The notes beneath the pieces are model-generated. The model saw only the letters and a program-made list of their open reading frames with translations. It had not been told where the DNA came from and ran no database searches. This document shows positions 16,496-32,340 of a DNA stretch of 64,000 bases, one piece after another. This DNA is from a phage, in assembly GCA_012490745.1 (NCBI GenBank), contig GCA_012490745.1_3925.1, one strand, 5' to 3'. How positions within the stretch are numbered: the stretch's first letter is position 1; each line of letters begins with the position of its first letter. The position numbers and the translations under genes are program-made.

Positions 16496-16523
16496 TTTAA
16501 CAGTAAACTAAGAGGAAAGTATT

Positions 16524-18890
16524 ATGCGCATGGTAAACGACCACGCAGAAGTGATTAAGAGTTCAACTTCTTTAGAGACGTCTCAAGCACAGATTACAAT
16601 GACACCTGAAATGTTCAGCCTTTTGAGTTCCGGTGTATACACATTTAAAGAAAGGGCAGTGATTCGTGAACTGTCATGTAACGCAGTAGATGCTCAAAAA
16701 GAAGCTGGAAAAGAGAACATCCCGTTCCATGTGCATTTACCTACTCGATTTGAGCCTTACTTTGAAGTCCGTGACTTTGGAACTGGTTTAACCCATGACA
16801 AAGTAATGAGTTTGTATCTGAACTATGGGGCTTCTACGAAGAATGACTCTAATGACTACATTGGTGCAATGGGTATCGGCTCAAAGTCACCGTTTGCGAT
16901 TGCTCAGTCATTCACAGTGTCTAGCTATGTTGATGGTGTTGTTAATAAGTACTCTGTTTACCTTGAGAATGGTATTCCTCAAGTAACTAAGCTTACTACT
17001 AACCAAACAAATGAACCTAATGGTTTAGCTGTACGTGTGGCAGTTGCTGACCACCGTATTTCAAAGTTCTTTGAAGAGGCTGGTAATGTATACTCATACT
17101 TTGCTGTAAAACCAGAGAGTAATGTGGAGTATAATGATATATTAGCAGATATGGATGTGATTGCTCGTGAAGAAGGTGTCTATGATGCCATGACTCATAA
17201 GCATAGCTGGCGTTCAAGCAGCAATAGAACAGAGTTTAACGTGGTTATGGGTAATATTGCCTACCCAGTTAATATGGAGGCATTACTTGGTGATGATTTC
17301 TTCAAAGTATTACCAGAATTTTTCCGCAGGAGCATAGACCTTGTAAACATCTACATGCCTATTGGTTCAGTTGCTATTGCAGCTTCTCGTGAAGCATTGC
17401 AGATGAATGACACGACAAAAAATGTTATCATCGAGGCTACTAAAAAGATAACTGAAGCAATTACAAAGGATGTTATCAAGAAAGTTAATAGTCAACCTAC
17501 ACTCATGGATGCTGCACAGGCTTATGCTGAGTTACGCTTGAACTCACGAGAGATGTTTAATGCTGTGTGTCCAAAGCTAGAGTGGGGAGGCGTTAAGCTT
17601 GATTCTCTGGAAGAAGAATTACTAAACATTCGTCGTGGGATTATCTACGCAGAAGACGGCTCAGTCATTTATGAACGTGACGGCAAAGGCAATATTAAGG
17701 TTGACAGCAAAGGAAACAATATCCCTAAAGTTGACTACCTATACAATCCAGTTGCTTATGTCAAGTTCAACTCTTTAGAGAGTAAGATTCGTGCAACAGC
17801 ACTTTCCTACACTCAAGAGGCAAGTATGTTCAATATCTTTGGTGCAATGCGTAAAAGTCAAATTGAACAGTTTTTGTTTGTTATTAATGACCGTCGCAAT
17901 AAAAACGGTACTGAGAAGACTGTAGGCCGCAATCAGATTCTGCGTGGTGCATGTCGAGACTACGCCAGTGAGTCCAGTCTGTTTCACAGATATAATGGCA
18001 TTGTGTTTGTATTCTCGACTGAAAAAGAGTTAGATGATTTAATCAATCTACACAAACTTGATAAAAGCTTGTTAAAGATTGTGAAAATGTCTGATAAGGA
18101 GCACCATTACCAGCGTAAAGAAGCTGTAAGGGGTGTTGTAAAACTCTGGAAAGCTGTTCCAGCAGAAGGTGTAGCTTCCTATAAAGAGGTTTCAGAGGAC
18201 TTTGATACAATTGAAGAGCCTCAGCTTTACATTAAGGCAGTTGGCGACACAGTTGATGGCGAATGTTTTTGCTCATCTCCAGAAGATGTAGCCAAGTCAG
18301 TTGCTAATGTTACAGGGAAGACAGTCTATGTTTTCCGAAAAGCAAATTGGAAAAAGATACCAGAAGACTGGATTGAAGTAGATGAGAAACTCTTGAACGA
18401 CAGCTTAACTGATGTTCATTGGATTAATCATAACAGATATATGACACGCATCTACATGAATGGTGTTCTTGACCTGACAAGCAGTTGGATTATTGCCAGA
18501 AACTTTACGTTCAATAACAGGAAGATTTCTCGTGGCTATTGCTATTCACGGGATACAAACAAAACTATCTTCCTAGAAGGAAATGAAGATGCTGTAGAGG
18601 CAATGTTTGGTAAAATCCAATACGTTGCTGCACCATTTGCATACACTTATACTATTAGTGTATTGAAAACTTTGAAAGACTGTCTTGACAATGATACAAA
18701 GCTTTACAAGAAAATTAAGAAAGCTGGTGACCGTATGGTCATTAAGGTGACAAACTACCTTTCAAAAAGAAAACAAGAAAACTTCTTGCTTTCTCATTTG
18801 GATTGGAATAAAGTGTCACCCATCGAAGTGAGTAAGTTCTTAGGCTTTGATGTAAAATGTGTTCCAGAAGGGACTACAATTTACGATTAA
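16524..18890 (+). CDS. rIIA: rIIA-like protein with GHKL-type ATPase N-terminal domain
   Basis: 788 aa; N-box-like RELSCNAVDA, G1-like VRDFGTGL, G2-like GAMGIGSKS in the order expected for a histidine-kinase-like ATPase fold as found in rIIA. Confidence 0.6.
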   Translation: MRMVNDHAEVIKSSTSLETSQAQITMTPEMFSLLSSGVYTFKERAVIRELSCNAVDAQKEAGKENIPFHVHLPTRFEPYFEVRDFGTGLTHDKVMSLYLNYGASTKNDSNDYIGAMGIGSKSPFAIAQSFTVSSYVDGVVNKYSVYLENGIPQVTKLTTNQTNEPNGLAVRVAVADHRISKFFEEAGNVYSYFAVKPESNVEYNDILADMDVIAREEGVYDAMTHKHSWRSSSNRTEFNVVMGNIAYPVNMEALLGDDFFKVLPEFFRRSIDLVNIYMPIGSVAIAASREALQMNDTTKNVIIEATKKITEAITKDVIKKVNSQPTLMDAAQAYAELRLNSREMFNAVCPKLEWGGVKLDSLEEELLNIRRGIIYAEDGSVIYERDGKGNIKVDSKGNNIPKVDYLYNPVAYVKFNSLESKIRATALSYTQEASMFNIFGAMRKSQIEQFLFVINDRRNKNGTEKTVGRNQILRGACRDYASESSLFHRYNGIVFVFSTEKELDDLINLHKLDKSLLKIVKMSDKEHHYQRKEAVRGVVKLWKAVPAEGVASYKEVSEDFDTIEEPQLYIKAVGDTVDGECFCSSPEDVAKSVANVTGKTVYVFRKANWKKIPEDWIEVDEKLLNDSLTDVHWINHNRYMTRIYMNGVLDLTSSWIIARNFTFNNRKISRGYCYSRDTNKTIFLEGNEDAVEAMFGKIQYVAAPFAYTYTISVLKTLKDCLDNDTKLYKKIKKAGDRMVIKVTNYLSKRKQENFLLSHLDWNKVSPIEVSKFLGFDVKCVPEGTTIYD

Positions 18891-23429: not shown

Positions 23430-24215
23430 ATGGGTATTGTAAAAATCATCAATGGCGATATCTTTGCAGCATTTGATAAAGGTAAGTTTGACATCATTGG
23501 TCACGGTTGCAACTGTATGAATTTAATGGGTGCAGGTATCGCTGACAAGATTTCTAAACTTTACCCAAAAGCATATGAGACCGATACAGAAGTTTACCTC
23601 TATGCAGGTGGTATAGGTCACAAACCCTGTGAAAATCTACTGGGTAATTTCTCTGTAGCACGTTTAGAACAAGGCCGTATAGCTAACCTTTACACTCAGC
23701 TTAAGACTGGTAAAGATGCCCGATACAGTGCTTTAGAGTCATCTTTGAAACAACTTAACAGATACTGTGAAGTCAATCAGTTGAAGAAAGTTGGGTTACC
23801 TATGATTGGTGCAGGTATCGGTGGACTAGACCCTCAAGCCGTCACAGTTATCATTAATCAGGTGATGAAGAGTGTAGATGTGTATCTTTATGTCTACGAA
23901 GGAGAGATGTACCACAAGTTACGCTCAGGTTGGAAGAACTACTGTGAACCAGAATACTTTGCAGGTGTAGCAGTGTTCACAGATAACGCAGTTACCCTCT
24001 TCAGACGAAGAAAAGGTAAGATACATCAAAGTAACCCTCCGGTTGAAAAGATGTCTCTAAGTAACGCTCTAGTTACCCACCTGTCGAAGAGCAATCACAG
24101 GATTGCAGTAACATTTGGCAGTGATGCAGATACTTATATCTATGCAAGAACTGATGAGGATATCGAGACAGTTTTCTCTTCACCAGAAGTTACCTTCTTA
24201 GACGCAAAGAACTAA
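23430..24215 (+). CDS. macro-domain protein (ADP-ribose binding/processing)
   Basis: INGDIFAAFDKGKFDIIGHGCNCMNLMGAGIADKI and VGLPMIGAGIGGLDPQ resemble the two Gly-rich macro-domain signature blocks; about 100-aa C-terminal extension. Confidence 0.55.
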   Translation: MGIVKIINGDIFAAFDKGKFDIIGHGCNCMNLMGAGIADKISKLYPKAYETDTEVYLYAGGIGHKPCENLLGNFSVARLEQGRIANLYTQLKTGKDARYSALESSLKQLNRYCEVNQLKKVGLPMIGAGIGGLDPQAVTVIINQVMKSVDVYLYVYEGEMYHKLRSGWKNYCEPEYFAGVAVFTDNAVTLFRRRKGKIHQSNPPVEKMSLSNALVTHLSKSNHRIAVTFGSDADTYIYARTDEDIETVFSSPEVTFLDAKN

Positions 24216-24287
24216 GAAACTCTGTAGGATATTCACAATAGCCTAAGCCTTTCTTATCTGGTAAATTTTTCAGGTAAGGAGGGCTTT

Positions 24288-24470
24288 TTCATTTCAGAAT
24301 TGTGCAGGTAGAGTTCTGTAGAGAAATCTGTAGAGAGAATTTTGAACTCCAAAGAGAAAATTCATTTTCAAACTGTGCAGATAATCTCCAAAGAGCTTTT
24401 TCATTTTCAAAACGTGCAGACCACACTCAGGTCGGGCAAGAAAAATCATTTTAGATTTGTGCAGGTAGGT
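24288..24470. repeat. four direct repeats of about 20 bp (TTCATTTTCAAAnnGTGCAG-type), iteron-like
   Basis: Copies near 24288, 24361, 24399, 24445; also duplicated CTCCAAAGAG and TCTGTAGAGA words; followed by C-rich tract (24491-24530) and AT-rich DNA. Confidence 0.6.
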
Positions 24471-24642
24471 TTTTATAGAGAGCCAGACCAACCCCTCTCC
24501 CCCTCTTACTCCCCCTCTCCCCAAAAATCAAGAGAAAAATTTGTAGCGGATTGAAAAATAATTCTTGATTTGTGTTCTGTTTTGTGGTAGTCGTGTGCGC
24601 CCGTTTCATTACAGTTTTGCCAAAAATATTTTTAAAATTTTT

Positions 24643-24736
24643 TCTTGACTCTTTGAACGTGGTTATCTAGTATTTGCATCAACGGGGAGGGAATGACCTT
24701 CCCCACTAAATAAAGTCCTAAACTGGAGATTCAAAA
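24643..24736 (+). promoter_or_regulatory. cassette A1: promoter (TTGACT-17-TAGTAT) + leader stem-loop GGGGAGGGAATGACCTTCCCC + conserved SD
   Basis: Hairpin 24684-24704; leader CCACTAAATAAAGTCCTAAACTGGAGATTCAAAA-ATG ending at ATG 24737. Confidence 0.6.
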
Positions 24737-25120
24737 ATGGCATATCGTGCACCTAAATTCATCAACAAAGACAACTTTCGCAACGCACTGGAGAAGTCAC
24801 TTGATGAGAATTTTAAAGGTAACATTATCGTTGTTCACGCATTCAATTTTAAGTATGATGTAAACGGGAATAGAATCAACCATTACACGGCAACCATGTT
24901 AGATGGTACACTTTCAAGTGAAAAAGCCGTACTAAATGCACTGGCAGGACGTGGAAAGGTATTAGTAAGATGTGATAAGAGACGTTATCAGGGCGGCGCA
25001 TATGGTTATGATGATGCTGTTTACCATCTTGAAAATATGGGCTATCAAGTAGAAAAAGCTGGAGCATCACAAATCATCGGCAGCGATGGTTATGTAACTA
25101 TCTTCAAAATTAACAAATAA
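24737..25120 (+). CDS. hypothetical protein (cassette-linked)
   Basis: ATG placed 8 nt after the conserved GGAG of cassette A1. Confidence 0.55.
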   Translation: MAYRAPKFINKDNFRNALEKSLDENFKGNIIVVHAFNFKYDVNGNRINHYTATMLDGTLSSEKAVLNALAGRGKVLVRCDKRRYQGGAYGYDDAVYHLENMGYQVEKAGASQIIGSDGYVTIFKINK

Positions 25121-25205
25121 AGTACTTTACAAGGGGCTTATAGTTCGATAAAGTAAGCCCCAGATAAAGAGCTTTACCACTAAATCCTAAACTGGAGATT
25201 CAAAA
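25121..25205 (+). promoter_or_regulatory. cassette B1: TTTACA-17-TAAAGT promoter-like element overlapping hairpin GGGGCTTA(13)TAAGCCCC + conserved SD leader
   Basis: Hairpin 25133-25161 with 8-bp perfect stem; leader AGATAAAGAGCTTTACCACTAAATCCTAAACTGGAGATTCAAAA-ATG. Confidence 0.5.
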
Positions 25206-25718
25206 ATGAAAACTGTAGACGCTACCTTTGAAGTTGTAAAAGAAAAATTTTCCATCATTTACGAAGCAGTTAATTGCTTTGAAGCAAGCCATAATCTTGA
25301 TAATTGGGAATTTACAGATGACCATCAAGGCGGTGTGACGATTAAAAATCCTAGCTGTCAGCGTAATGAATTTAAATATGCAATCCCTTTACATTACAGC
25401 CTTAAACAGCTTTCAAGTGACTATGCAAAACAAGGCCGGGAAAACCCATCAAAAGAGGCTTACATCAGCTTACAGAAAGAACTAGAAAGAGATTTAGAGG
25501 CTTCAGAATATAACATCGCCGCGAAAGTTGTAGATGCAAACGGTAGCACGGTTTTAGAGAGTTTTTATATTGGTTATGCTTTCGATTGGTGCTATCATGA
25601 CGGCGATGATTTAGAGGATAGACTAAAAGAAGAGGTGAACAACGCAGACGCAGAATCTGAAGTATTAGAACGTTTGGAATCGTTGAAAGACTCAGTGATG
25701 AATATCTTTAAGAACTAA
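25206..25718 (+). CDS. hypothetical acidic protein (cassette-linked)
   Basis: 170 aa, acidic (many D/E), ATG at conserved cassette position. Confidence 0.55.
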   Translation: MKTVDATFEVVKEKFSIIYEAVNCFEASHNLDNWEFTDDHQGGVTIKNPSCQRNEFKYAIPLHYSLKQLSSDYAKQGRENPSKEAYISLQKELERDLEASEYNIAAKVVDANGSTVLESFYIGYAFDWCYHDGDDLEDRLKEEVNNADAESEVLERLESLKDSVMNIFKN

Positions 25719-25721
25719 ATA

Positions 25722-25810
25722 GATTTCTTTACACGGGGTTATCAGACTGATAAGATAGCCCCAGATAAAGAGCTTTATTCAAATCAACCCTTAAACTAGG
25801 AGATTCTAAA
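25722..25810 (+). promoter_or_regulatory. cassette B2 (variant): TTTACA-17-TAAGAT + hairpin GGGGTTATC...GATAGCCCC + SD
   Basis: Hairpin 25735-25762 with one G-U pair; same downstream leader. Confidence 0.45.
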
Positions 25811-26107
25811 ATGAAATTATCAAATCAAGTGCGTGAGAATCTGAGCAAATTACTCAACAAAATTGATTTCATTGAAACATCAAGGAATAGTCATGATGTT
25901 ATGGAATGGTTACACGGCAAAATAAAAGGCCGTCGTGTAGTGATTTGCTTATGGAACAGTTGCAGGGAGTATAAAAAACCTGTATTGCAAGTCAATATCT
26001 ATGATGATACTTTTAAAAGCCCTGTAAAGTCTAAAAACGACTTATTAGAATCCTATGAGATAACTGTAAGTGGCAAAGTATCACGTAAAGAGGAAACACC
26101 ATGTTAA
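25811..26107 (+). CDS. hypothetical protein (cassette-linked)
   Basis: ATG at conserved cassette position. Confidence 0.5.
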   Translation: MKLSNQVRENLSKLLNKIDFIETSRNSHDVMEWLHGKIKGRRVVICLWNSCREYKKPVLQVNIYDDTFKSPVKSKNDLLESYEITVSGKVSRKEETPC

Positions 26108-26433
26108 TGACTGGTATCACTGCAATCATTGCCATTTTCGCGCTATATAAGGCATATAAAGCCTATAATCTAGCAAATAAGGCAATCACACAGCAGGTTA
26201 GAAATAACCTTGTAGAGAGCTTTCTAGGGCGTCTCAGTGATGAGCAAATAAAGCGGCTAGAGATGAGCTTCAGATACAAAGCGAAAACCTATCAGATAAG
26301 TGACATCTTCAAAGATAATTTTCAGTTAGTTGATGATTATAATTCTCTGATAAATGCTTTAAATGTCAGTGACTTAAAAGACTACTACGCTGTAATTGTT
26401 CAAGAGTTGAGCAAACGAAAACAAAACTGTTGA
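26107..26433 (+). CDS. hypothetical membrane protein
   Basis: TAATG stop/start overlap with upstream gene; N-terminal TM helix (GITAIIAIFALY). Confidence 0.4.
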   Translation: MTGITAIIAIFALYKAYKAYNLANKAITQQVRNNLVESFLGRLSDEQIKRLEMSFRYKAKTYQISDIFKDNFQLVDDYNSLINALNVSDLKDYYAVIVQELSKRKQNC

Positions 26434-26522
26434 CACTGGTTTTTAGATAGATTAAATTACACATCAACGGGGAGGGAATGACCTTCCCCACTAAATAAAG
26501 TCCTAAACTGGAGATTCTGAAA
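26430..26522 (+). promoter_or_regulatory. cassette A2: TTGACA-17-TAAATT promoter + leader hairpin + SD
   Basis: TTGACA 26430-26435; hairpin 26469-26489; conserved leader to ATG 26523. Confidence 0.6.
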
Positions 26523-26795
26523 ATGTATACTACTAACAACGGTCGCACCTTAAATGTCACCTTGCGTCACTATGTAGACGGTGTGATGTGCTTTGAAGAT
26601 TTACGGGCTGAGCAACACATCTTAAATTGGCAAGTTGCAGGACTCCAAAAAACTGCTACAGGATACGGGAAAAAGATTCCAACCAGTTGGAAAGTACACT
26701 ACGAAGGACGTTTGCGCAGAATTTATCAGGATGTGCAAAGCAATAGCGCATCGAGTTACATTATAGTAAAAGGCAAAAAACTGCATTTAATGTAA
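26523..26795 (+). CDS. hypothetical protein (cassette-linked)
   Basis: ATG at conserved cassette position. Confidence 0.5.
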   Translation: MYTTNNGRTLNVTLRHYVDGVMCFEDLRAEQHILNWQVAGLQKTATGYGKKIPTSWKVHYEGRLRRIYQDVQSNSASSYIIVKGKKLHLM

Positions 26796-26796
26796 A

Positions 26797-26881
26797 GTAC
26801 TTTACAAGGGGCTTATAGTTCGATAAAGTAAGCCCCAGATAAAGAGCTTTACCACTAAATCCTAAATTGGAGAACTTAAAA
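26797..26881 (+). promoter_or_regulatory. cassette B3
   Basis: Hairpin 26808-26836 (GGGGCTTA...TAAGCCCC); near-identical to B1. Confidence 0.5.
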
Positions 26882-27286
26882 ATGGCTATTAATAACCGTG
26901 AATTATCAATTTTAAAAGCACGTTTGACCGTTAACCGGATTAATGTTATCACGTCATCAGCACCAGATGAAACACTGCAAAACATTATTGGGAAGATTCA
27001 AAGTGTTATCTTAGACGTTGAAAGCGTAAAAAATTCATTGGCTGACGTTGCAGCAGGTATCACACTAGACGGTGCGCAATATGAAATGTCCGACATGTTA
27101 GGCAAATCTAAGGTAATGAATAAAGAGTTAGATTTGAAAATGTTCCGATTTGCTGTTAAAGTGTGGCTATCTGTCGAGTATGATGCTAACTTTGCAATCG
27201 CTGACTTTTTCGCCACTTGGTTGCAGCGTAATTTGACTAATCATGACTTCCGCGATATCTGTGATGCAATTTATGCAGAACTCTAA
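26882..27286 (+). CDS. hypothetical protein (cassette-linked)
   Basis: ATG 26882 at cassette position (the track start 26867 is TTG). Confidence 0.5.
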   Translation: MAINNRELSILKARLTVNRINVITSSAPDETLQNIIGKIQSVILDVESVKNSLADVAAGITLDGAQYEMSDMLGKSKVMNKELDLKMFRFAVKVWLSVEYDANFAIADFFATWLQRNLTNHDFRDICDAIYAEL

Positions 27287-27296
27287 AAAAATTTTG

Positions 27297-27388
27297 TTGA
27301 CACTGGTTTTTAGATAGATTAAATTACACATCAACGGGGAGGGAATGACCTTCCCCACTAAATAAAGTCCTAAACTGGAGATTCAAAA
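27297..27388 (+). promoter_or_regulatory. cassette A3: TTGACA-17-TAAATT + hairpin + SD
   Basis: Near-identical copy of A2; hairpin 27336-27356. Confidence 0.6.
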
Positions 27389-27592
27389 ATGGCTATTATT
27401 AATGGTTTAACCATTGAAACTACACACATCAAAGATATCAAAGTTGGCGATATAGTCCTTTCCCACGGCGTAGAAAAAACTGTCACTGCAAAGGATATCA
27501 AAGAGGATTCTTTCATGGGTAGGACTCTCTTCGGTGATTCTTATTGCTTAGGCTATCTTGCAGTTTTAAAAGTTGTCAAAAATAACAAATAA
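27389..27592 (+). CDS. hypothetical small protein (cassette-linked)
   Basis: 67 aa; ATG at cassette position. Confidence 0.5.
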   Translation: MAIINGLTIETTHIKDIKVGDIVLSHGVEKTVTAKDIKEDSFMGRTLFGDSYCLGYLAVLKVVKNNK

Positions 27593-27678
27593 AGTACTTT
27601 ACAAGGGGCTTAAAAGTTGATAACTTAAGCCCCAGATAAAGAGCTTTACCACTAAATCCTAAACTGGAGATTCTAAAA
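27593..27678 (+). promoter_or_regulatory. cassette B4 (variant loop)
   Basis: Hairpin 27605-27633 GGGGCTTAA...TTAAGCCCC (9-bp stem). Confidence 0.5.
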
Positions 27679-27927
27679 ATGATGAACTACTTTAACATTC
27701 CCGATACCTGTAGATTATTGACACAAGAAGAAAATTTGGGTAAACCTTTCATTTACCACATGCCAGATAACACGGCAAAAACTTATAGTTACAATGTTAA
27801 CCGTTTCACCGCATACGCTGCAAAGAACGGCTATAGGTTGGTTACTCAAAAAGTAATGCTGGTTACAACTGCTGGCGAGATTCCTACAGTTGCAGTCAAA
27901 CTAGTTTTCTCAAAGAAAGTTAAATAA
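27679..27927 (+). CDS. hypothetical small protein (cassette-linked)
   Basis: 82 aa. Confidence 0.5.
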   Translation: MMNYFNIPDTCRLLTQEENLGKPFIYHMPDNTAKTYSYNVNRFTAYAAKNGYRLVTQKVMLVTTAGEIPTVAVKLVFSKKVK

Positions 27928-28012
27928 AGTACTTTACAAGGGGCTTATAGTTCGATAAAGTAAGCCCCAGATAAAGAGCTTTACTACTCAATCCTAAACT
28001 GGAGATTCAAAA
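27928..28012 (+). promoter_or_regulatory. cassette B5
   Basis: Hairpin 27940-27968; same as B1/B3. Confidence 0.5.
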
Positions 28013-28555
28013 ATGAAATGTTATCACGGAACTACTCAAGAAAATTTCCTCAACCTGATTAATAACGGTGATAAACCATCAGGCGCATGGAATTGTTCGG
28101 ATATGGACGGCAATTTTTACGTGTATCCAGAAAATAAAATCTATGGCGACGATGATGAAGAGATAACATCGGAGGGCATTCAGCAAGCTCTAGGGAACGC
28201 CACTATTACGGCGGCCTTCCAGATGAAAACCCAAAATATTGTTATCTTAGAACTCGATATTCCAGATGATGAGCTAAATGATGATTATTCTTGTGATAAT
28301 ATGTCGAGTGTAGCAAGTTTTACAGAGTACTTTGATGTAAACTGGATTAAAAAGGTCTATACAACAGAGTTTAACGCTATGTATTCGCCTTTTTGTCTTC
28401 CTTCACTGGATAACCCAAATATGAACTATCTTGATGAGACATTAGAACTACTTGCTAAAAGTGTTCAACAGTCGGACAGTATTCAGGTTTTTTGTGACAT
28501 CATGGATACACTGACAGGAAACATCGCAGAAGAGGATTTAAAGAGCTTTTTCTAA
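28013..28555 (+). CDS. hypothetical highly acidic protein (cassette-linked)
   Basis: 180 aa; D/E-rich stretches (DDDEEITSEG, DIPDDELNDDY). Confidence 0.55.
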   Translation: MKCYHGTTQENFLNLINNGDKPSGAWNCSDMDGNFYVYPENKIYGDDDEEITSEGIQQALGNATITAAFQMKTQNIVILELDIPDDELNDDYSCDNMSSVASFTEYFDVNWIKKVYTTEFNAMYSPFCLPSLDNPNMNYLDETLELLAKSVQQSDSIQVFCDIMDTLTGNIAEEDLKSFF

Positions 28556-28587
28556 AAACCTATGCAATCACCTTATAAACACTATTT

Positions 28588-28607
28588 AGCCCCTTACAGG
28601 GGCTTTT
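28588..28607 (+). terminator. rho-independent terminator (AGCCCCT-TAC-AGGGGCT + TTTT)
   Basis: Perfect 7-bp stem then T-run; followed by SD GGGAGG and ATG 28622. Confidence 0.6.
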
Positions 28608-28621
28608 GGGAGGCTTAAATC

Positions 28622-28855
28622 ATGCTTACAACCGTTTACCTCATCCTTTCTATTTGTAACGGTCATTCATGCGATTTTAAAGGGCTTGAAGAGTTTACAG
28701 GAAGTAAAGAAAATGCTATTCAAGTTTGCCAGATAGCAAGACAAGACTATCCCGCTAGTGATGATATACAATGTTACTTTAAGACAGAAGATGAAGACGG
28801 TATCTATTTTGACAGCGTAGATGGTCAGTATGAAATTATCATTGAAAAAGACTAG
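28622..28855 (+). CDS. hypothetical small protein
   Basis: 77 aa; SD GGGAGG 8 nt upstream. Confidence 0.45.
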   Translation: MLTTVYLILSICNGHSCDFKGLEEFTGSKENAIQVCQIARQDYPASDDIQCYFKTEDEDGIYFDSVDGQYEIIIEKD

Positions 28856-28869
28856 ACAAGCCTGATAAA

Positions 28870-28946
28870 AATCTGTAAATTGTCAATCAACGGGGAGGGA
28901 ATGACCTTCCCCACTAAGTACAATCCTTAAACTAGGAGATTCAAAA
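28870..28946 (+). promoter_or_regulatory. cassette A4: (TAGACA-17-TAAATT) + hairpin + SD
   Basis: Hairpin 28892-28912 GGGGAGGGAATGACCTTCCCC. Confidence 0.5.
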
Positions 28947-29288
28947 ATGGCTTATGTAACCGTAATTACCGATAAAGAAAATTCATCTTGGTCAACTCAA
29001 GTAAGTGATAAGATGTCACCTATGCAGTGCCTAAAATACTTTGAGCAGTGGAACAAAGGCGAGGATGTCAGCCCCTTTCAAGTGATGCAAATCATCCATA
29101 CAGATAACGAAGGGAATAAAACGGTTTTAAATAGTGAGTACTACGCAAGCCGTTTTGAAACTAGAAGTAAAACAATGAAGCTTTTACGTGAATCCGGTTA
29201 TGCCCATATCGCCGCGCTAATCTGGGATGACCTGCTAAAAAGACAGCGTATCAGCTATGTAAAACCTGAAAAAATATTCATCAGTTAA
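28947..29288 (+). CDS. hypothetical protein (cassette-linked)
   Basis: 113 aa. Confidence 0.5.
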   Translation: MAYVTVITDKENSSWSTQVSDKMSPMQCLKYFEQWNKGEDVSPFQVMQIIHTDNEGNKTVLNSEYYASRFETRSKTMKLLRESGYAHIAALIWDDLLKRQRISYVKPEKIFIS

Positions 29289-29410
29289 TCAATAACTTAC
29301 AAAAAACTTTTAAAAAAGTGTTGACAATACCCATTGACATTGGTAACTTTGTTCGAGGGGGTTATCTAAAAGGGATTCACTTAAAAGATTCTTTATAGAT
29401 AAGCTTAAAA

Positions 29411-29507
29411 AATTGCTTGCAATCAGCTATCAAAACAAGTAAATTACTAATCAACGGGAGGGATGACCTCCCCACTAAATAAAAATCCTTAAACTAGGAG
29501 AGTCAAA
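29411..29507 (+). promoter_or_regulatory. cassette A5: TTGCAA-17-TAAATT + hairpin GGGAGG-GATGA-CCTCCC + SD
   Basis: Hairpin 29456-29473; conserved TAAATTACTAATCAACGGG and leader. Confidence 0.55.
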
Positions 29508-30038
29508 ATGAACAAGTTTAAAGCTATCAACTTCATTCGTTCAAATGCTGTAATGTCTAAGCCTGTAAAAGATACATATGAATTCCGTTGTAATGGGGTA
29601 CATTTCGCAACAATCACCAAATCAGAAAACGGGGCTTATTACGTTCATCGTCGTAATGTCTCAACCGTTGTAGTCTCTCACTTTATGCAAGCTGTAGCGG
29701 AATTATTACCGTTATTCTTAGAGATTTATCTAGATGAGTGTAAAAACGTTCACAACCACGTTAAAAACCTTTTAAACGGTTATAAAATGGCTTATGAACG
29801 TTCTATCAAGTCACTAAACAAGTTTTACAATGCACCTGCAAATACTGTTTCAATGGCTTATGATGTAAACGGTGAGTTAGTTAGTCTCTTTAAAGTGGAA
29901 GAAATTAAACTGTATAATTTACGTCCTAGTGGTTACTCTAAGACTCTTGGTGAAGGTTTAACGTTCAATATCAAGAACTTAGAAAAAACTTTAAAAGATA
30001 TTGAAAAAGATATTGACGAGACAATCAAAAGTCTGTAA
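29508..30038 (+). CDS. hypothetical protein (cassette-linked)
   Basis: 176 aa. Confidence 0.5.
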   Translation: MNKFKAINFIRSNAVMSKPVKDTYEFRCNGVHFATITKSENGAYYVHRRNVSTVVVSHFMQAVAELLPLFLEIYLDECKNVHNHVKNLLNGYKMAYERSIKSLNKFYNAPANTVSMAYDVNGELVSLFKVEEIKLYNLRPSGYSKTLGEGLTFNIKNLEKTLKDIEKDIDETIKSL

Positions 30039-30103
30039 ATTACTAATCAACGGGAGGCGATAACCTCCCCACTAAATAAAACCCTTAAACTAGGAGATTC
30101 AAG
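30013..30103 (+). promoter_or_regulatory. cassette A6: TTGACG-17-TAAATT (promoter overlaps 3' end of upstream gene) + hairpin + SD
   Basis: Hairpin 30052-30070 GGGAGG-CGATAA-CCTCCC. Confidence 0.55.
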
Positions 30104-30367
30104 ATGGAAAACGTAGAATTAACCACACTTTTACAAATTGCAACCGACAAAGAAGATGTAGCATTATTTCACCGTATTGAAAGTGATTTGTTCAATGGTG
30201 AAATCATCAAAGAATCTTACGAAGTTGTCGGATTCAAAGATGGTAAAGCGTTTGGCTTTTTTGACCTCGATAAAGGCAACGCTGTTACAAAATATGATGT
30301 TTTATCTTGTGAGATTCTTACAAAATACAACGAAAAAAGGCTTGCAACATACGCCAATATGCAGTAA
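30104..30367 (+). CDS. hypothetical protein (cassette-linked)
   Basis: 87 aa. Confidence 0.5.
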   Translation: MENVELTTLLQIATDKEDVALFHRIESDLFNGEIIKESYEVVGFKDGKAFGFFDLDKGNAVTKYDVLSCEILTKYNEKRLATYANMQ

Positions 30368-30432
30368 ATTACTAATCAACGGGAGGGATGACCTCCCCAC
30401 TAAATAAAACCCTTAAACTAGGAGATTCAAAA
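30333..30432 (+). promoter_or_regulatory. cassette A7: TTGCAA-17-TAAATT + hairpin + SD
   Basis: Hairpin 30381-30398; leader to ATG 30433. Confidence 0.55.
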
Positions 30433-30681
30433 ATGGCAACTATCCGCGCTACTGTTAACGAGTTCGGTTTTTCCTCTCTGGATGTTAAATTTGACATTGC
30501 AGGCACTGATAACGCCTTTGAAATGGTGAAATGTCTTATCAGTCAGACCATCAAAGACTATAATCCTTCGGATGAGTTCTGGGAGGAAACAAAACAAGAA
30601 GTTCTCAAGGATGGTTATACTTATCACTATTGGGGAGAAAAAATCGTCTCCCTGTACTACAACAAACAAGATTATAACTAA
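30433..30681 (+). CDS. hypothetical protein (cassette-linked)
   Basis: 82 aa from ATG 30433 (the track start 30388 lies inside the cassette). Confidence 0.5.
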   Translation: MATIRATVNEFGFSSLDVKFDIAGTDNAFEMVKCLISQTIKDYNPSDEFWEETKQEVLKDGYTYHYWGEKIVSLYYNKQDYN

Positions 30682-30719
30682 TCGACGCAGCGGGGCTATT
30701 TAGCCCCAGATACCCTAAC

Positions 30720-30745
30720 AGCCCCTATTTAAAGGGGCTTTTTTA
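30720..30745 (+). terminator. rho-independent terminator (AGCCCCT-ATTTAA-AGGGGCT + T6)
   Basis: Perfect 7-bp stem and TTTTTT; preceded by a second hairpin GGGGCTATTTAGCCCC (30692-30707). Confidence 0.7.
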
Positions 30746-30749
30746 CGTC

Positions 30750-32340
30750 TATCGAATCCTTATACAATCCCTTTCCCTCACCTTTCCAGAATCTTATCAG
30801 ACCTTAAAAGCAATAACTCTATAGTCTACTCTATAACCTCTTATCAAATCAACTTAAATATAAGCCCATAACCCGAAAGGGAAGGGCAACCCCTTAAACG
30901 CTCTATAACGCCCTATAACAGCCTTATCAACCTAACTTAAGGGGTTGCATTAACTCACCCTAAAAAGCCCTTCCTAGAGCTTCCTAGAACCTTAAAAGAA
31001 TCTTATAAGGGTGTAAGCTTTATTATCTCGTTAGCTATCTTGTGAACTACTAAACAAGCCCCTTGATAGTAACTGAAAAGTATGTTATAGGGGCTATAAA
31101 GTTACTTCAAAGTTGCTTAAAAGTTACGTAAATGCTAGCCCCCTTAACATTTTCTTAACAATTTCTTAACAAACCCTACATAGTTATGCTTTTAAGGCAC
31201 TTGTTAGCAACTTGTTAGCCCCTTGTTAAATCTCTGTCAAGACCACGTAAAAGCCTTGTAAGAACCTTTGACATAGTCTTTAAAGCCCCTGTAAAGCCCT
31301 ATAAAGAGGTATCTGTACAGTTGGGGTGTAATTACTAGGAAGAGGCTTAAAAGAGCTTACAAGGGGCTATAGAGAGCTTTTAAGAGGGCTATTTAGAGAA
31401 TCACTAAGAAAGAGAGGGAACGATAAGAAAAGAGATAGTGACCATGTTAATAGCTTGTTAAAAAGATTAAACACTTGTTAGAAACTTGTTAATTATCTTA
31501 ACAAAATAACTCTTAAAAATTAACTTGTTAGCTCTTGTTAGTCATCTGTTAAGACTCTGTAAAGACCATGTATCGTCTGTTAAGAAACTGTTAAGCCCTT
31601 GTTAGTTATGTTAAGAATCTGTTAAGACCTCTGAAGAGATGTTAAGAGATTGAGAGAGTTGTTAAGAGATTGTTAAGGATATTTTAAAATTCTGCAAAGT
31701 ACTTGTAAGGGAGCTGTTAAGGGCTACCAAGCAGATATACATCTTCTACAGATATTTTTCAGTTCCTTCAAAGACCCTAAAAAATGACTTGATAGTCCTA
31801 TTTTATAAAAATTTTAAAAATCTGAATAATTACCTATACAGTCTTTCTAAAATACAGGTAATAACAGGCTTATAAGATACCTTGTTAGTACCGTGTTAGA
31901 CCTTGTGAGATAAGGTCTGTAAAGATATTCCTGTTAAGTTTGTTAAAACAGTCTATATAGAGGCTTAGTAGCACCTAGTGAACACCTATAGAGAGTATCA
32001 TAGCTGACATAATGGGTTACTGTTAAGTAACACAGATAACCTAGAGATTAAGAGGTGTATAGGAGCTTCTAAGAGAGTGTAGAGAGATGGTTAAGGTGAT
32101 TGTATAGGTTGTTAAGAAGGCTTGTTAGAAGAGTGTTTAGAGGGCTATTTAGAAGGGCTATACAGAGGGCTATTAAGACCACTAGATAGTTACTAAGATA
32201 CTATATAGTACTATATAACTATATAGAGAGTAAGATTAAGAAGGTTGTTAAGAAGGGTAGATATTTTATTCACATATGATGGTGACCCAGAGGTTGGGAC
32301 AACCGATAAAATTTTACTCAATAAAAAGCCCCCGATTAAG
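30750..32340. repeat. 1.6-kb ORF-free region densely packed with short degenerate repeats
   Basis: No ORF of 60 aa or more on either strand. Repeated words: CTTGTTAG / CTGTTAAG / TTGTTAAGA (over 20 copies, both orientations), GGGCTAT(T/A)NAG, CTATATAG / CTATAAC, CCTTAAAAG. Confidence 0.7.

What the first reader, a model, noticed from the sequence alone, without database searches (positions are those of the whole stretch)
24643..30432. Seven copies of a conserved promoter + 5'-leader stem-loop + SD cassette (type A), resembling promoter-stem-loop shuffling cassettes
Each copy has a sigma70-like promoter with exact 17-bp spacing (TTGACA/TTGCAA/TTGACG/TAGACA/TTGACT - 17 - TAAATT or TAGTAT), then the conserved string TAAATTAC(N)AATCAACGGG, a GC hairpin (GGGGAGGG-AATGACC-TTCCCC or GGGAGG-GATGA-CCTCCC), and an invariant leader CCACTAAATAAA...CCTAAACT-GGAG-ATTCAAAA-ATG. 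Each fronts a different small ORF. Near-identical regulatory cassettes flanking unrelated cargo genes is the arrangement described for PeSL elements in T4-type hyperplastic regions, and would give recombination-driven gene shuffling plus uniform early expression.
Basis: seen in the sequence. Interest (0 to 1): 0.75.

Follow-up and report, generated by a model that had tools for sequence, protein, structure and literature searches.

The report
Repeated promoter–hairpin gene cassettes, Felix O1-type phage
A Felix O1-type phage puts the same ~95-base "promoter + RNA hairpin + ribosome-binding site" cassette in front of seven unrelated small genes, and related phages have gained and lost single genes by recombining between these cassettes, an arrangement so far described only for T4-type phages.

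Summary
Seven + strand copies of a ~95-bp cassette lie only between 24645 and 30435; chance expects none.

Each copy has, in order:
- an A-tract;
- a -35-like hexamer, exactly 17 bp, then TAAATT (TAGTAT in copy 1);
- 10 nt ending ATCAAC;
- a 6-8-bp GC hairpin;
- an A-rich leader and GGAG 7-9 nt before ATG.

The window is a Felixounavirus. The cassettes sit in a 6-kb array of 14 small genes of unknown function, alongside five copies of a second cassette (type B) that shares the leader/SD module.

Only 8 of 256 related phage records cover 80% or more of this region, against 76-85% for control segments. All 13 genomes compared differ in gene content. All eight indel junctions examined are chimeric cassettes.

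The PeSL analogy holds for modular gene gain and loss. It fails on anatomy: the hairpin lies downstream of the -10 and has no U-tract, so it is not a terminator.

Best reading: a host sigma-70 promoter whose transcript starts 2-4 nt before a protective 5' hairpin. That hairpin position is kept in 39 sequence variants across three genera. No transcript mapping exists.

Felix O1's 2010 genome paper listed the repeats without interpreting them. I rate this a new variant of a known kind, of moderate interest.

The parts
24645..24739 (+). Type A cassette 1: -35 TTGACT 24645-24650, -10 TAGTAT 24668-24673, hairpin 24684-24704 (8 bp, -13.7 kcal/mol), GGAG 24725-24728, ATG 24737. Fronts a 127-aa ORF (24737-25120).
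26430..26525 (+). Type A cassette 2: -35 TTGACA 26430-26435 (contains the TGA stop of the upstream ORF), -10 TAAATT 26453-26458, hairpin 26469-26489, GGAG 26510-26513, ATG 26523. Fronts a 90-aa ORF.
27297..27391 (+). Type A cassette 3: identical to cassette 2 from the -35 through the leader. -35 27297-27302, -10 27320-27325, hairpin 27336-27356, GGAG 27377-27380, ATG 27389. Fronts a 67-aa ORF.
28853..28949 (+). Type A cassette 4: -35 TAGACA 28853-28858 (TAG is the stop of the upstream ORF), -10 TAAATT 28876-28881, hairpin 28892-28912, AGGAG ending 28938, ATG 28947. Fronts a 113-aa ORF.
29417..29510 (+). Type A cassette 5: -35 TTGCAA 29417-29422, -10 TAAATT 29440-29445, hairpin 29456-29472 (6 bp, -11.2 kcal/mol), AGGAG ending 29500, ATG 29508. 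Fronts a 176-aa ORF.
30013..30106 (+). Type A cassette 6: -35 TTGACG 30013-30018 lies inside the upstream coding sequence; -10 TAAATT 30036-30041, whose TAA is the stop codon of that ORF; hairpin 30052-30069; AGGAG ending 30096; ATG 30104. Fronts an 87-aa ORF.
30342..30435 (+). Type A cassette 7: -35 TTGCAA 30342-30347 lies inside the upstream coding sequence; -10 TAAATT 30365-30370 (TAA is the upstream stop); hairpin 30381-30397; AGGAG ending 30424; ATG 30433. Fronts an 82-aa ORF (to 30681).
25117..25208 (+). Type B cassette 1 (companion element). Stop codon, then TTTACA-17-TAAAGT overlapping an interrupted hairpin (inner stem GGGGCTTA/TAAGCCCC), then the same leader/SD module as type A. ATG 25206.
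25720..25813 (+). Type B cassette 2, a variant with inner stem GGGGTTATC/GATAGCCCC. ATG 25811.
26792..26884 (+). Type B cassette 3. ATG 26882.
27589..27681 (+). Type B cassette 4. ATG 27679.
27924..28015 (+). Type B cassette 5. ATG 28013.
24737..30681 (+). Array of 14 small cargo ORFs (67-180 aa). They fall in 14 different PHROGs, all of unknown function. This is the hyperplastic accessory region of the phage.
24245..24286 (+). Canonical hairpin + T-run terminator bounding the array upstream (Felix O1 t13 equivalent).
   Evidence: PMC3185647 Table 2
30720..30739 (+). Canonical hairpin + T-run terminator bounding the array downstream (Felix O1 t23 equivalent).
   Evidence: PMC3185647 Table 2

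Best explanation
The seven elements are paralogous copies of a portable ~95-bp expression cassette of Felix O1-type (Ounavirinae) phages.

1. Promoter (inferred from sequence, strongly supported). Host sigma-70 RNA polymerase uses an upstream A-tract, a -35-like hexamer and a TAAATT -10 spaced exactly 17 bp apart. Each cargo gene or gene pair therefore has its own host-type promoter.

2. Hairpin (inferred). Transcription should start at the A/C of ATCAAC, 7-9 nt after the -10. The RNA would then begin 2-4 unpaired nt before a 6-8-bp GC hairpin. I propose the hairpin acts in the RNA as a 5'-terminal protective structure against 5'-end-dependent decay. In read-through RNAs from upstream cassettes it would act as a 3'-exonuclease barrier. 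It is not a terminator.

3. Translation (sequence level). An A-rich, weakly structured leader and a GGAG/AGGAG Shine-Dalgarno 7-9 nt before the ATG give every cargo gene the same translation start.

4. Recombination (shown by comparative genomics). Because the cassettes, and the type B cassettes that share their 3' module, are 60-100 bp of near-identical DNA, homologous recombination between them deletes, inserts or re-fronts single-gene modules. Each event leaves a chimeric but intact cassette.

My rough sub-confidences: the repeat family is real, 0.99; promoter, 0.8; recombination substrate, 0.85; 5'-stabiliser role of the hairpin, 0.4.
For: Repeat family:
- 7 of 7 sites on one strand, with chance expectation about 0.

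Promoter:
- The scan tool lists six of the seven; the seventh (29417) is read directly from the sequence.
- The 17-bp spacers are mostly unrelated between copies (3-11 of 17 identical), apart from the identical pair of copies 2 and 3.
- Even so, every copy has a 4-6 of 6 match to TTGACA at exactly 17 bp. The product of background tail probabilities over six spacer contexts is 8e-13.
- An A5-6 tract lies just upstream of the -35 in 7 of 7 copies, against 11% of background windows. This holds even where it falls inside coding sequence.
- The same -35/17/-10 geometry recurs in Mooglevirus Michonne.
- Felix O1 ORFs 21 and 22, which are type-A fronted, are maximally expressed at 5 min (PMC3185647 Table 3).

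Hairpin:
- The MFE folds put the hairpin at nt 4 onward of the predicted RNA, with the SD left open.
- I compared 39 distinct leader variants (36 distinct hairpin sequences) from 13 genomes in three genera. All keep a hairpin starting 3-6 nt after nominal +1, and 32 of 39 start at exactly 4 nt. Median dG is -12.3 kcal/mol and median z is -4.6.
- Unrelated stems occupy the same position: GGGC/GCCC, GGGGC/GCCCC, GGGA/TCCC, GGGGCTA/TAGCCCC, and GGTTGA/TCAACC in an Erwinia phage.
- One clean G-C to U-A compensatory change occurs, in the Seyj1-1 variant GGGGAGGU...AACUUCCCC.
- Loops vary freely (AAUGA, GAUGA, CGAUAA, GAAA, AAUA). This argues for a structural role rather than a sequence-specific one.

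Recombination:
- Only 8 of 256 records cover 80% or more of 24600-30700, against 211 of 278 and 251 of 297 for equal-length controls.
- Thirteen genomes give thirteen different arrangements.
- At eight indel junctions the sequence switches from the left parental cassette to the right one inside the conserved part. In Felix O1, for example, the promoter of the cassette that fronts F8 in the window is fused to the leader and gene of F12.
- The same cargo gene is fronted by type A in some genomes and type B in others (F2, F9).
- A two-indel SD-module haplotype is polymorphic at 14 of 16 orthologous loci.
- The cassettes are absent from the rest of the genome.
Against: - No transcription start, half-life or reporter data exist for any Felix O1-type phage in the library searched.
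- The -10 (TAAATT) matches the consensus at only 4 of 6 positions. The Felix O1 genome paper did not list these sites among its predicted promoters.
- RT-PCR timing of type-A-fronted Felix O1 ORFs is mixed: ORFs 21 and 22 peak at 5 min, ORFs 19 and 23 at 25 min.
- Some natural variants carry weakened hairpins (down to -5.4 kcal/mol) or mismatches, so selection on the stem is not absolute.
- The copies are too similar, with register slips in G/C runs, for a formal covariation test. RNAalifold on a MAFFT alignment found no consensus pairs.
- Sense versus antisense stability does not clearly favour an RNA on the + strand.
- Ends of perfect-identity tracts between relatives lie inside genes as well as in cassettes. 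The cassettes are therefore not the only recombination sites.
Confidence: 0.55

Rival explanations
1. True PeSL: the hairpin is a transcription terminator or attenuator that insulates each module, paired with an early promoter as in RB49/phi1.
For: - The stems are GGGG...CCCC-type, like RB49 PeSLs (PMC2839356).
- The GenBank records of ASO1A and KhF1 annotate these hairpins as rho-independent terminators.
- Plasticity is cassette-bounded.
Against: - The hairpin lies 10 nt downstream of the -10, so it would terminate its own transcript.
- It is followed by ACTAAATAAA, not a U-run.
- The terminator scan finds only the two flanking terminators on the + strand and none of the seven hairpins.
- KhF1 places its 'terminators' on the opposite strand from the genes.
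Confidence: 0.08
2. The hairpin and its invariant flanks (ATCAAC, CCCCACUAAAU) are an operator for a phage-encoded factor. Candidates are a translational repressor of early mRNAs (RegA-like), a boxB/nut-like antitermination site, a site-specific RNase target, or a recombinase site on DNA.
For: - The whole leader, not only the SD, is conserved across paralogues and across two genera.
- ATCAAC is invariant in all seven copies.
- How Felix O1 transcription passes its many terminators is unknown (PMC3185647).
- Arbiol et al. speculated that GGGG...CCCC stem-loops are recombination-protein targets.
Against: - Loop sequence and stem sequence both vary widely, and the hairpin is replaced by unrelated hairpins at the same position. 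That pattern is not expected for a specific protein-RNA contact.
- No boxA-like partner motif was seen.
- Crossover points are spread over the hairpin, the leader and the SD module. This fits general homologous recombination rather than a site-specific enzyme.
- Leader conservation can be maintained by inter-cassette gene conversion.
Confidence: 0.15
3. There are no internal promoters. The array is one long transcript, started at cassette 1 or further upstream, and the cassettes are only intercistronic RNA stability, processing and translation-start elements.
For: - The -10 is weak.
- Promoters 6 and 7 sit inside coding sequence.
- Hairpins followed by AU-rich single-stranded RNA are typical RNase E contexts (my own knowledge, not checked here).
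- Type B elements fold into ~17-20-bp interrupted stems with three compensated pairs, like processing sites.
Against: - -35-like hexamers and A-tracts are kept at fixed distance in otherwise unrelated upstream sequence and in Michonne.
- This is hard to explain without promoter function.
- Type B also keeps an invariant TTTACA-17-TAnnnT across 60 distinct variants.
Confidence: 0.12
4. The repeats are neutral leftovers of recent tandem duplications with no function of their own.
For: Cassettes 2 and 3 are identical over about 100 bp, including the spacer.
Against: - The architecture is conserved in three genera whose flanking phosphatase protein (F1) is only 44-65% identical to the window's.
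- The cargo genes are unrelated.
- Spacers differ while the functional hexamers stay in place.
Confidence: 0.03

Closest known systems
PeSL (promoter-early stem-loop) cassettes of T4-type phages (Arbiol et al. 2010, PMC2839356; Comeau et al. 2014, PMC4122927)
   Same: - Multi-copy intergenic cassettes of 50-100 bp with an AT-rich stretch, a sigma-70-like -35/-10 at 17 bp, SD and ATG.
- G-run/C-run stem-loops.
- Concentrated in a hyperplastic region of small ORFs of unknown function.
- Indels between close relatives have crossovers inside the cassettes.
   Different: - The stem-loop is downstream of the -10, in the transcript leader, not upstream of the promoter.
- It has no terminator features.
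- The phage lineage is different (Ounavirinae, about 88 kb, no T4-like transcription factors).
- Two cassette types share one 3' module, so A/B hybrids arise.
- Mini-circle formation is untested.
5'-terminal stem-loop mRNA stabilisers, such as the E. coli ompA 5' UTR and the phage T7 gene 10 leader
   Same: - A GC hairpin within a few nt of the predicted 5' end.
- It is followed by an A/U-rich unstructured leader and a strong SD.
- Structure and position are conserved, but not sequence.
   Different: - The 5' end has not been mapped here, so the defining proximity to the 5' terminus is only predicted.
- Here the element is a multi-copy module coupled to a host-type promoter.
Felix O1 'direct repeats' (Whichard et al. 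2010, PMC3185647)
   Same: These are the same elements. Their 39-bp repeat TTGACACTGGTTTTTAGATAGATTAAATTACACATCAAC is the promoter part of type A. Their 57-bp repeat is type B.
   Different: The paper lists them only as direct repeats of 24 bp or more. It assigns no promoter, hairpin or recombination role and leaves them out of its promoter list.
Host-takeover module of Bacillus phage SPO1 and the early regions of T4 and T7 (from my own knowledge, not checked here)
   Same: A compact array of small early or accessory genes, each with a strong host-type promoter and strong SD. For type B, the intercistronic long hairpins are reminiscent of T7 RNase III sites.
   Different: Those arrays are not built from near-identical, interchangeable cassettes.

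Membership tests
PeSL (T4-type promoter-early stem-loop) | Multi-copy intergenic cassette with a sigma-70-like -35/-10 at about 17 bp, an AT-rich upstream stretch, SD and ATG | tested here: met
PeSL (T4-type promoter-early stem-loop) | Stem-loop located upstream of the promoter and acting as terminator for incoming transcription | tested here: not met
   The hairpin starts 10 nt downstream of the -10 in all 7 copies. It has no U-tract and is not flagged by the terminator scan.
PeSL (T4-type promoter-early stem-loop) | Clustered in hyperplastic regions, with indels between close relatives that have crossovers inside cassettes | tested here: met
   8 of 256 records against 211 of 278 and 251 of 297 for full coverage. 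Eight chimeric junctions.
PeSL (T4-type promoter-early stem-loop) | Formation of excised mini-circles by cassette-cassette recombination | not testable with these tools
   Needs inverse PCR or long reads on infected cells.
PeSL (T4-type promoter-early stem-loop) | Host genome is a T4-like myovirus | tested here: not met
   The window is a Felixounavirus (Ounavirinae).
Sigma-70 (host) promoter | -35 and -10 hexamers with 17 +/- 1 bp spacing, conserved against a variable background | tested here: met
   promoter activity itself was not tested.
Intrinsic (rho-independent) terminator | GC-rich hairpin immediately followed by a U-run | tested here: not met
   The hairpin is followed by ACTAAATAAA. 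One search finds only 24245-24286 and 30720-30739 on the + strand.
5'-terminal stem-loop mRNA stabiliser | Hairpin within about 0-4 nt of the RNA 5' end, with position and structure conserved but not sequence | tested here: inconclusive
   Position relative to the -10 and structure are conserved in 39 variants. The transcription start site is predicted, not mapped.
boxB/nut-type antitermination hairpin | Conserved loop sequence recognised by an N-like protein, plus a boxA partner | tested here: not met
   Loops vary (AAUGA, GAUGA, CGAUAA, GAAA, AAUA, GCAG). No boxA-like motif was seen.
RNase III processing site | About 20 bp of (interrupted) double-stranded RNA | tested here: not met
   Type A stems are 6-8 bp. 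The companion type B element has 17 consensus pairs, 3 of them with compensatory changes. Its status is open.
Any Rfam family | Match to a curated covariance model | tested here: not met
   The only hit is a chance-level miRNA match, E = 0.52.

The most novel reading that the evidence does not exclude
Types A and B together form a subfamily-wide 'plug-and-play' system that evolved independently of T4 PeSLs. Under this reading the hairpins are not just passive stabilisers. They would mark phage early mRNAs for a phage-encoded factor, for example one that protects them while host mRNA is degraded, or one that targets recombination. Gene gain and loss in this accessory-gene array would then be an actively promoted process.
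Probability: 0.12. Interest if true: 0.7.

Novelty: new variant of a known kind. Interest (0 to 1): 0.5.

Why it matters
- It extends the PeSL idea, that conserved regulatory cassettes double as recombination linkers for single-gene modules, from T4-type phages to an unrelated myovirus subfamily used in Salmonella and E. coli typing, biocontrol and therapy. The architecture differs: the hairpin sits in the leader rather than upstream as a terminator.
- It explains why the accessory-gene region differs between nearly every pair of Felix O1-type isolates.
- It offers an explanation for assemblies that break in this region. One record, phage Andreotti, ends there.
- It corrects database annotations that call these hairpins terminators.
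- It gives a compact natural promoter, 5' hairpin and RBS module that could be tested as a phage-engineering part, and natural insertion points for payload genes.
- Cargo genes here are 'toolbox' genes. The Bas63 homologue of the 180-aa ORF is conditionally essential on one host (PMC11482910).

Tried and rejected
- **RNAalifold on type A.** A MAFFT alignment of 39 type A variants gave no consensus structure, because G/C-run register shifts misalign the arms. I used per-sequence folding instead.
- **Rfam.** Nothing relevant was found.
- **IMG/VR pattern scan.** A strict hairpin pattern returned only 9 stretches on 6 Felix O1-sized contigs. This added little and was not used further.
- **Andreotti 'deletion'.** Phage Andreotti appeared to lack 12 of the 14 array genes. 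Its record ends inside the array with an inverted copy of the leader, so I treated it as an assembly break, not a deletion (E7).
- **Two apparent deletions.** F11 in LF110P2 and F6 in SWJM-02 were misses of my own gene caller, not real events (E6b and E10).
- **Strand asymmetry.** Sense versus antisense hairpin stability, tried as a test of an RNA-level role, was inconclusive.
- **Leader peptide.** An ATG in the loop could give MTFPTK* in copies 1-4. Copy 6 has no ATG there, so I rejected this.
- **T4 MotA-box middle promoter.** TGCTTG occurs upstream of copy 5 only (copy 7 has GGCTTG). I rejected this because the spacing to the -10 is wrong and Felix O1 lacks MotA/AsiA.
- **SD/anti-SD mimicry.** The two arms (GGAGG / CCUCC) resemble SD and anti-SD sequences. 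This is not general, because other stems such as GGGGC/GCCCC replace them.
- **Recombination only at cassettes.** Identity-tract ends also fall inside genes, so this was not upheld.
- **Transcriptomics literature.** Searches for Felix O1-type transcriptomics found none.

Full report
**What the window is**

Megablast of 24600-30700 hits 256 phage records, all Felix O1-type myoviruses of E. coli, Salmonella, Shigella and Citrobacter. The best is Escherichia phage LMP33 at about 95% identity. The wider window fits this: rIIA/rIIB, a macro-domain 'phosphatase' gene at 23430-24215, a 25-tRNA cluster and structural genes. The finding lies between two canonical terminators, 24245-24286 and 30720-30739. 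These correspond to t13 and t23 of Felix O1 (PMC3185647).

**Checking the observation**

The seven copies are real and confined to this interval.
- ATCAACGGGRRG occurs 7 times in 64 kb, all on the + strand, with 0 expected from shuffles.
- CCCCACTAARTAMA marks the same seven sites, with 0.06 expected.
- The alignment and coordinate extraction show the same order of parts in every copy:
  - an A5-6 tract;
  - a -35-like hexamer (TTGACT, TTGACA, TTGACA, TAGACA, TTGCAA, TTGACG, TTGCAA);
  - exactly 17 bp, then TAAATT (TAGTAT in copy 1);
  - exactly 10 nt ending in the invariant ATCAAC;
  - a hairpin;
  - CCACTAAAT-type leader, and GGAG/AGGAG 7-9 nt before ATG.
- The hairpin is GGGGAGGG/AATGA/CCTTCCCC in copies 1-4, 8 bp including one G.U pair, at -13.7 kcal/mol. 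It is GGGAGG/GATGA/CCTCCC in copies 5 and 7, and GGGAGG/CGATAA/CCTCCC in copy 6.
- The seven downstream ORFs (67-176 aa) are unrelated. All 14 ORFs of the array fall in 14 different PHROGs of unknown function, and none of the ten scanned has a Pfam match.
- No copy occurs elsewhere in the window, nor in the first 50 kb of LMP33, which covers the part of the genome outside the window.

**A second cassette in the same interval**

Five genes are fronted by a different repeat, which I call type B. It runs: stop codon, TTTACA, 17 bp, TAAAGT, with a hairpin (inner stem GGGGCTTA/TAAGCCCC) filling the spacer, then AGATAAAGAGCTTTA. It ends in the same CCACTAAATCCTAAACTGGAGATTCAAAAATG module as type A.

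So the array is built from two 5' modules and one shared 3' leader/SD module. Only two genes lack either cassette. One overlaps its neighbour's stop. The other follows a terminator-like hairpin.

**Is type A a promoter?**

There is no experiment, but the sequence evidence is strong.
- The 17-bp spacers are mostly unrelated between copies (3-11 of 17 identical), apart from the identical pair of copies 2 and 3.
- Every copy nevertheless has a 4-6 of 6 match to TTGACA at exactly 17 bp from the -10. The product of background tail probabilities over six spacer contexts is 8e-13.
- An A5-6 tract, like the proximal UP-element subsite, precedes the -35 in 7 of 7 copies against 11% of background windows. 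This includes copies 6 and 7, where it lies inside the upstream coding sequence.
- Stop codons of upstream genes are built into the -35 (copies 2 and 4) or into the TAA of the -10 (copies 6 and 7).
- The same geometry, with TAAAGT or TAGTAT as the -10, recurs in the Mooglevirus Michonne.
- In Felix O1, ORFs 21 and 22 (type A fronted) are maximally expressed at 5 min. ORFs 19 and 23 peak at 25 min in an end-point RT-PCR. Early expression is therefore plausible, but 'uniform' expression is not shown.
- The Felix O1 paper listed these sequences only as 39-bp and 57-bp 'direct repeats' and not among its promoters.

**What is the hairpin?**

It is not a terminator. It lies downstream of its own -10 and is followed by ACTAAATAAA. 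The terminator scan picks up only the two flanking terminators on the + strand. Database records that label these hairpins as rho-independent terminators, on either strand, rest on automatic predictions.

With a start 7-9 nt after the -10, at the C/A/A of ATCAAC, the RNA would begin 2-4 nt before the stem. Predicted folds show the hairpin plus an essentially open SD region.

Across 13 genomes in three genera I collected 39 distinct leader variants carrying 36 distinct hairpin sequences.
- All fold into a hairpin whose first paired base is 3-6 nt after nominal +1, and 32 of 39 are at exactly 4 nt.
- Median dG is -12.3 kcal/mol, and median z is -4.6 against shuffles.
- Variation includes G-C to G.U changes, paired insertions and deletions that convert 8-bp stems to 7- and 6-bp stems, and one clean G-C to U-A compensation.
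- Six variants carry a mismatch or a lost terminal pair.
- Unrelated stems occupy the same slot: GGGC/GCCC and GGGGCTA/TAGCCCC in Felixounavirus, GGGGC/GCCCC and GGGA/TCCC in Michonne, and GGTTGA/TCAACC 9 nt after a TATACT -10 in an Erwinia Kolesnikvirus.
- Loops are not conserved.

Position and structure are kept while sequence is not. That fits a generic physical role, and the most economical one is a 5'-terminal protective stem-loop. The comparison with ompA and T7 gene 10 leaders is from my own knowledge, not checked here. This step is inferred, not shown. A formal covariation test failed because register slips in G/C runs defeat alignment. The sense versus antisense stability comparison was inconclusive.

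**Do the cassettes drive gene gain and loss?**

- *Hyperplasticity.* Only 8 of 256 matching records cover 80% or more of the region in one place, with 4.5 matching places per record. Two equal-length control segments (rII region, head genes) give 211 of 278 and 251 of 297, with 1.1 and 1.0 places per record.
- *Arrangements.* Thirteen genomes give thirteen different gene/cassette strings. Order is largely colinear, so the variation is mostly presence/absence. Michonne shows one translocated gene and one tandem duplication.
- *Junctions.* For eight indels I aligned the junction cassette of the genome lacking the segment with the two flanking cassettes of a genome that has it. In every case the sequence follows the left cassette, passes through a stretch identical in both, and continues as the right cassette.
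  - Felix O1 lost four genes by joining the promoter of one type A cassette to the leader of another.
  - It lost a fifth gene in the same way.
  - VpaE1_ev035 lost one gene by an A x B exchange in the shared SD module.
  - LMP33 differs from the window by one type-B-flanked gene.
  - A 52-aa ORF is inserted using only the roughly 10-25-nt SD module as homology.
- *Re-fronting.* The same cargo gene is fronted by A in some genomes and B in others.
- *Gene conversion.* A two-indel haplotype of the SD module (CCTAAACTGGAG versus CCTTAAACTAGGAG) is polymorphic at 14 of 16 orthologous loci. This implies exchange among cassettes.
- *Mosaicism.* The nearest relative of the window changes at least seven times across 15 genes.
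- *Caveat.* Ends of perfect-identity tracts lie inside genes as well as in cassettes. General homologous recombination acts everywhere. The cassettes matter specifically for joining non-homologous cargo.
- *Crossover positions.* They are spread over hairpin, leader and SD. This argues for ordinary homologous recombination rather than a site-specific enzyme.

**Comparison with what is known**

PeSLs of T4-type phages (PMC2839356, PMC4122927) share the repeated promoter/SD cassette, G-run/C-run stem-loops, hyperplastic location and crossovers inside the cassettes. They differ in the defining placement and role of the stem-loop, which is upstream and acts as a terminator. They also differ in phage lineage. 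Type A therefore works like a PeSL as a recombination linker, but it is not a member of that family.

Type B is anatomically closer to a PeSL, since stem-loop and promoter-like element overlap.
- Its invariant TTTACA-17-TAnnnT is kept in 60 distinct variants.
- Its consensus structure has 17 pairs, three of them with compensatory changes, one of which separates genera.
- This suggests it is both a real RNA structure and a promoter-like site. I did not resolve this.

Full-text searches found PeSLs discussed only for T4-like phages and cyanophages. The cassette sequences appear in no paper other than the Felix O1 genome report.

**Cargo**

All cargo genes are of unknown function. The Bas63 homologue (gp107) of the 180-aa ORF at 28013-28555 is reported as conditionally essential on E. 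coli S17-1 (PMC11482910). This fits an accessory 'toolbox' region.

**Verdict**

- The PeSL interpretation is partly supported: right on modular plasticity and promoter, wrong on what the hairpin is.
- Novelty: a new variant of a known kind.
- Interest is moderate. The main open point, promoter activity and hairpin function, is directly testable with standard 5'-end mapping and reporter assays.

Noticed in passing
window 25117-25208, 25720-25813, 26792-26884, 27589-27681, 27924-28015: Type B cassette, five copies. It folds into a ~17-20-bp interrupted hairpin (z -3.3 to -3.9), with 3 compensated pairs across genera. It also carries an invariant TTTACA-17-TAnnnT across 60 variants in three genera. 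It could be a promoter with a hairpin in its spacer, an RNase III-like processing site, or both. A palindrome TAAAGTACTTTA sits at the upstream stop codon.
   Followed up: partly
window 24216-24640: A ~430-bp non-coding stretch upstream of cassette 1. It holds 3-4 direct repeats of ~35-39 nt (TTCATTTTCAAACTGTGCAGA-type) and a C-rich tract CCCCTCTCCCCCTCTTACTCCCCCTCTCCCC (24492-24522), whose complement resembles the hairpin 5' arm GGGGAG.
   Followed up: no
window 30740-32300: About 1.6 kb of non-coding DNA after the array, dense in short direct repeats (CTGTTAAGA / CTTGTTAG families). The equivalent stretch of phage Andreotti is annotated only as 'repeat_region'. It may be an origin, iteron or packaging region.
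   Followed up: no
window 29289-29416: The conserved ~220-nt intergenic region before cassette 5 contains a further good promoter-like site (TTGACA 29321-29326, 17 bp, TAACTT 29344-29349) with no cassette leader and no ORF of 40 aa or more. Michonne and LMP33 annotate tiny ORFs here. It could encode a small RNA or peptide.
   Followed up: no
window 28588-28621: The only array gene with a different front end. A hairpin AGCCCCTTACAGGGGCT followed by TTTT runs directly into the SD GGGAGG of the 77-aa ORF at 28622. This looks like a terminator-like hairpin coupled to a translation start.
   Followed up: no
window 30692-30714: After the last cargo ORF there is a type-B-like hairpin remnant (GGGGCTATTTAGCCCC + AGATACC) just before the real terminator. 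It looks like the decayed end of the cassette array. In one relative (not identified) a type A promoter is fused to a similar GGGGCTA...TAGCCCC hairpin.
   Followed up: no
locus L023/L024 (MN850610, phage Andreotti): The record is 83.4 kb and ends inside the cassette array, with an inverted copy of the leader and of the start of the 176-aa gene. This is probably an assembly break at the repeats. Cassette repeats can corrupt short-read assemblies of these phages.
   Followed up: partly
window 24693-24713 (and the same place in copies 2-5 and 7): The hairpin loop contains an ATG that opens a 6-9-codon mini-ORF (MTFPTK* in copies 1-4). It is absent in copy 6 (loop CGATAA) and in several relatives, so it is probably incidental.
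   Followed up: partly
window 16504-16526: The translation start region of rIIA (TAAACTAAGAG...ATG) resembles the cassette SD module, the only similar site outside the array.
   Followed up: no
locus L021 (Erwinia phage vEam_W_25) about 14690-14800: A composite with a true terminator (GGGGCTTTACAGCCCC + T-run) whose loop is a TTTACA -35. It is followed by 18 bp, TATACT, 9 nt, a GGTTGA/TCAACC hairpin, a leader and an SD. This is the most PeSL-like arrangement seen in the subfamily.
   Followed up: partly
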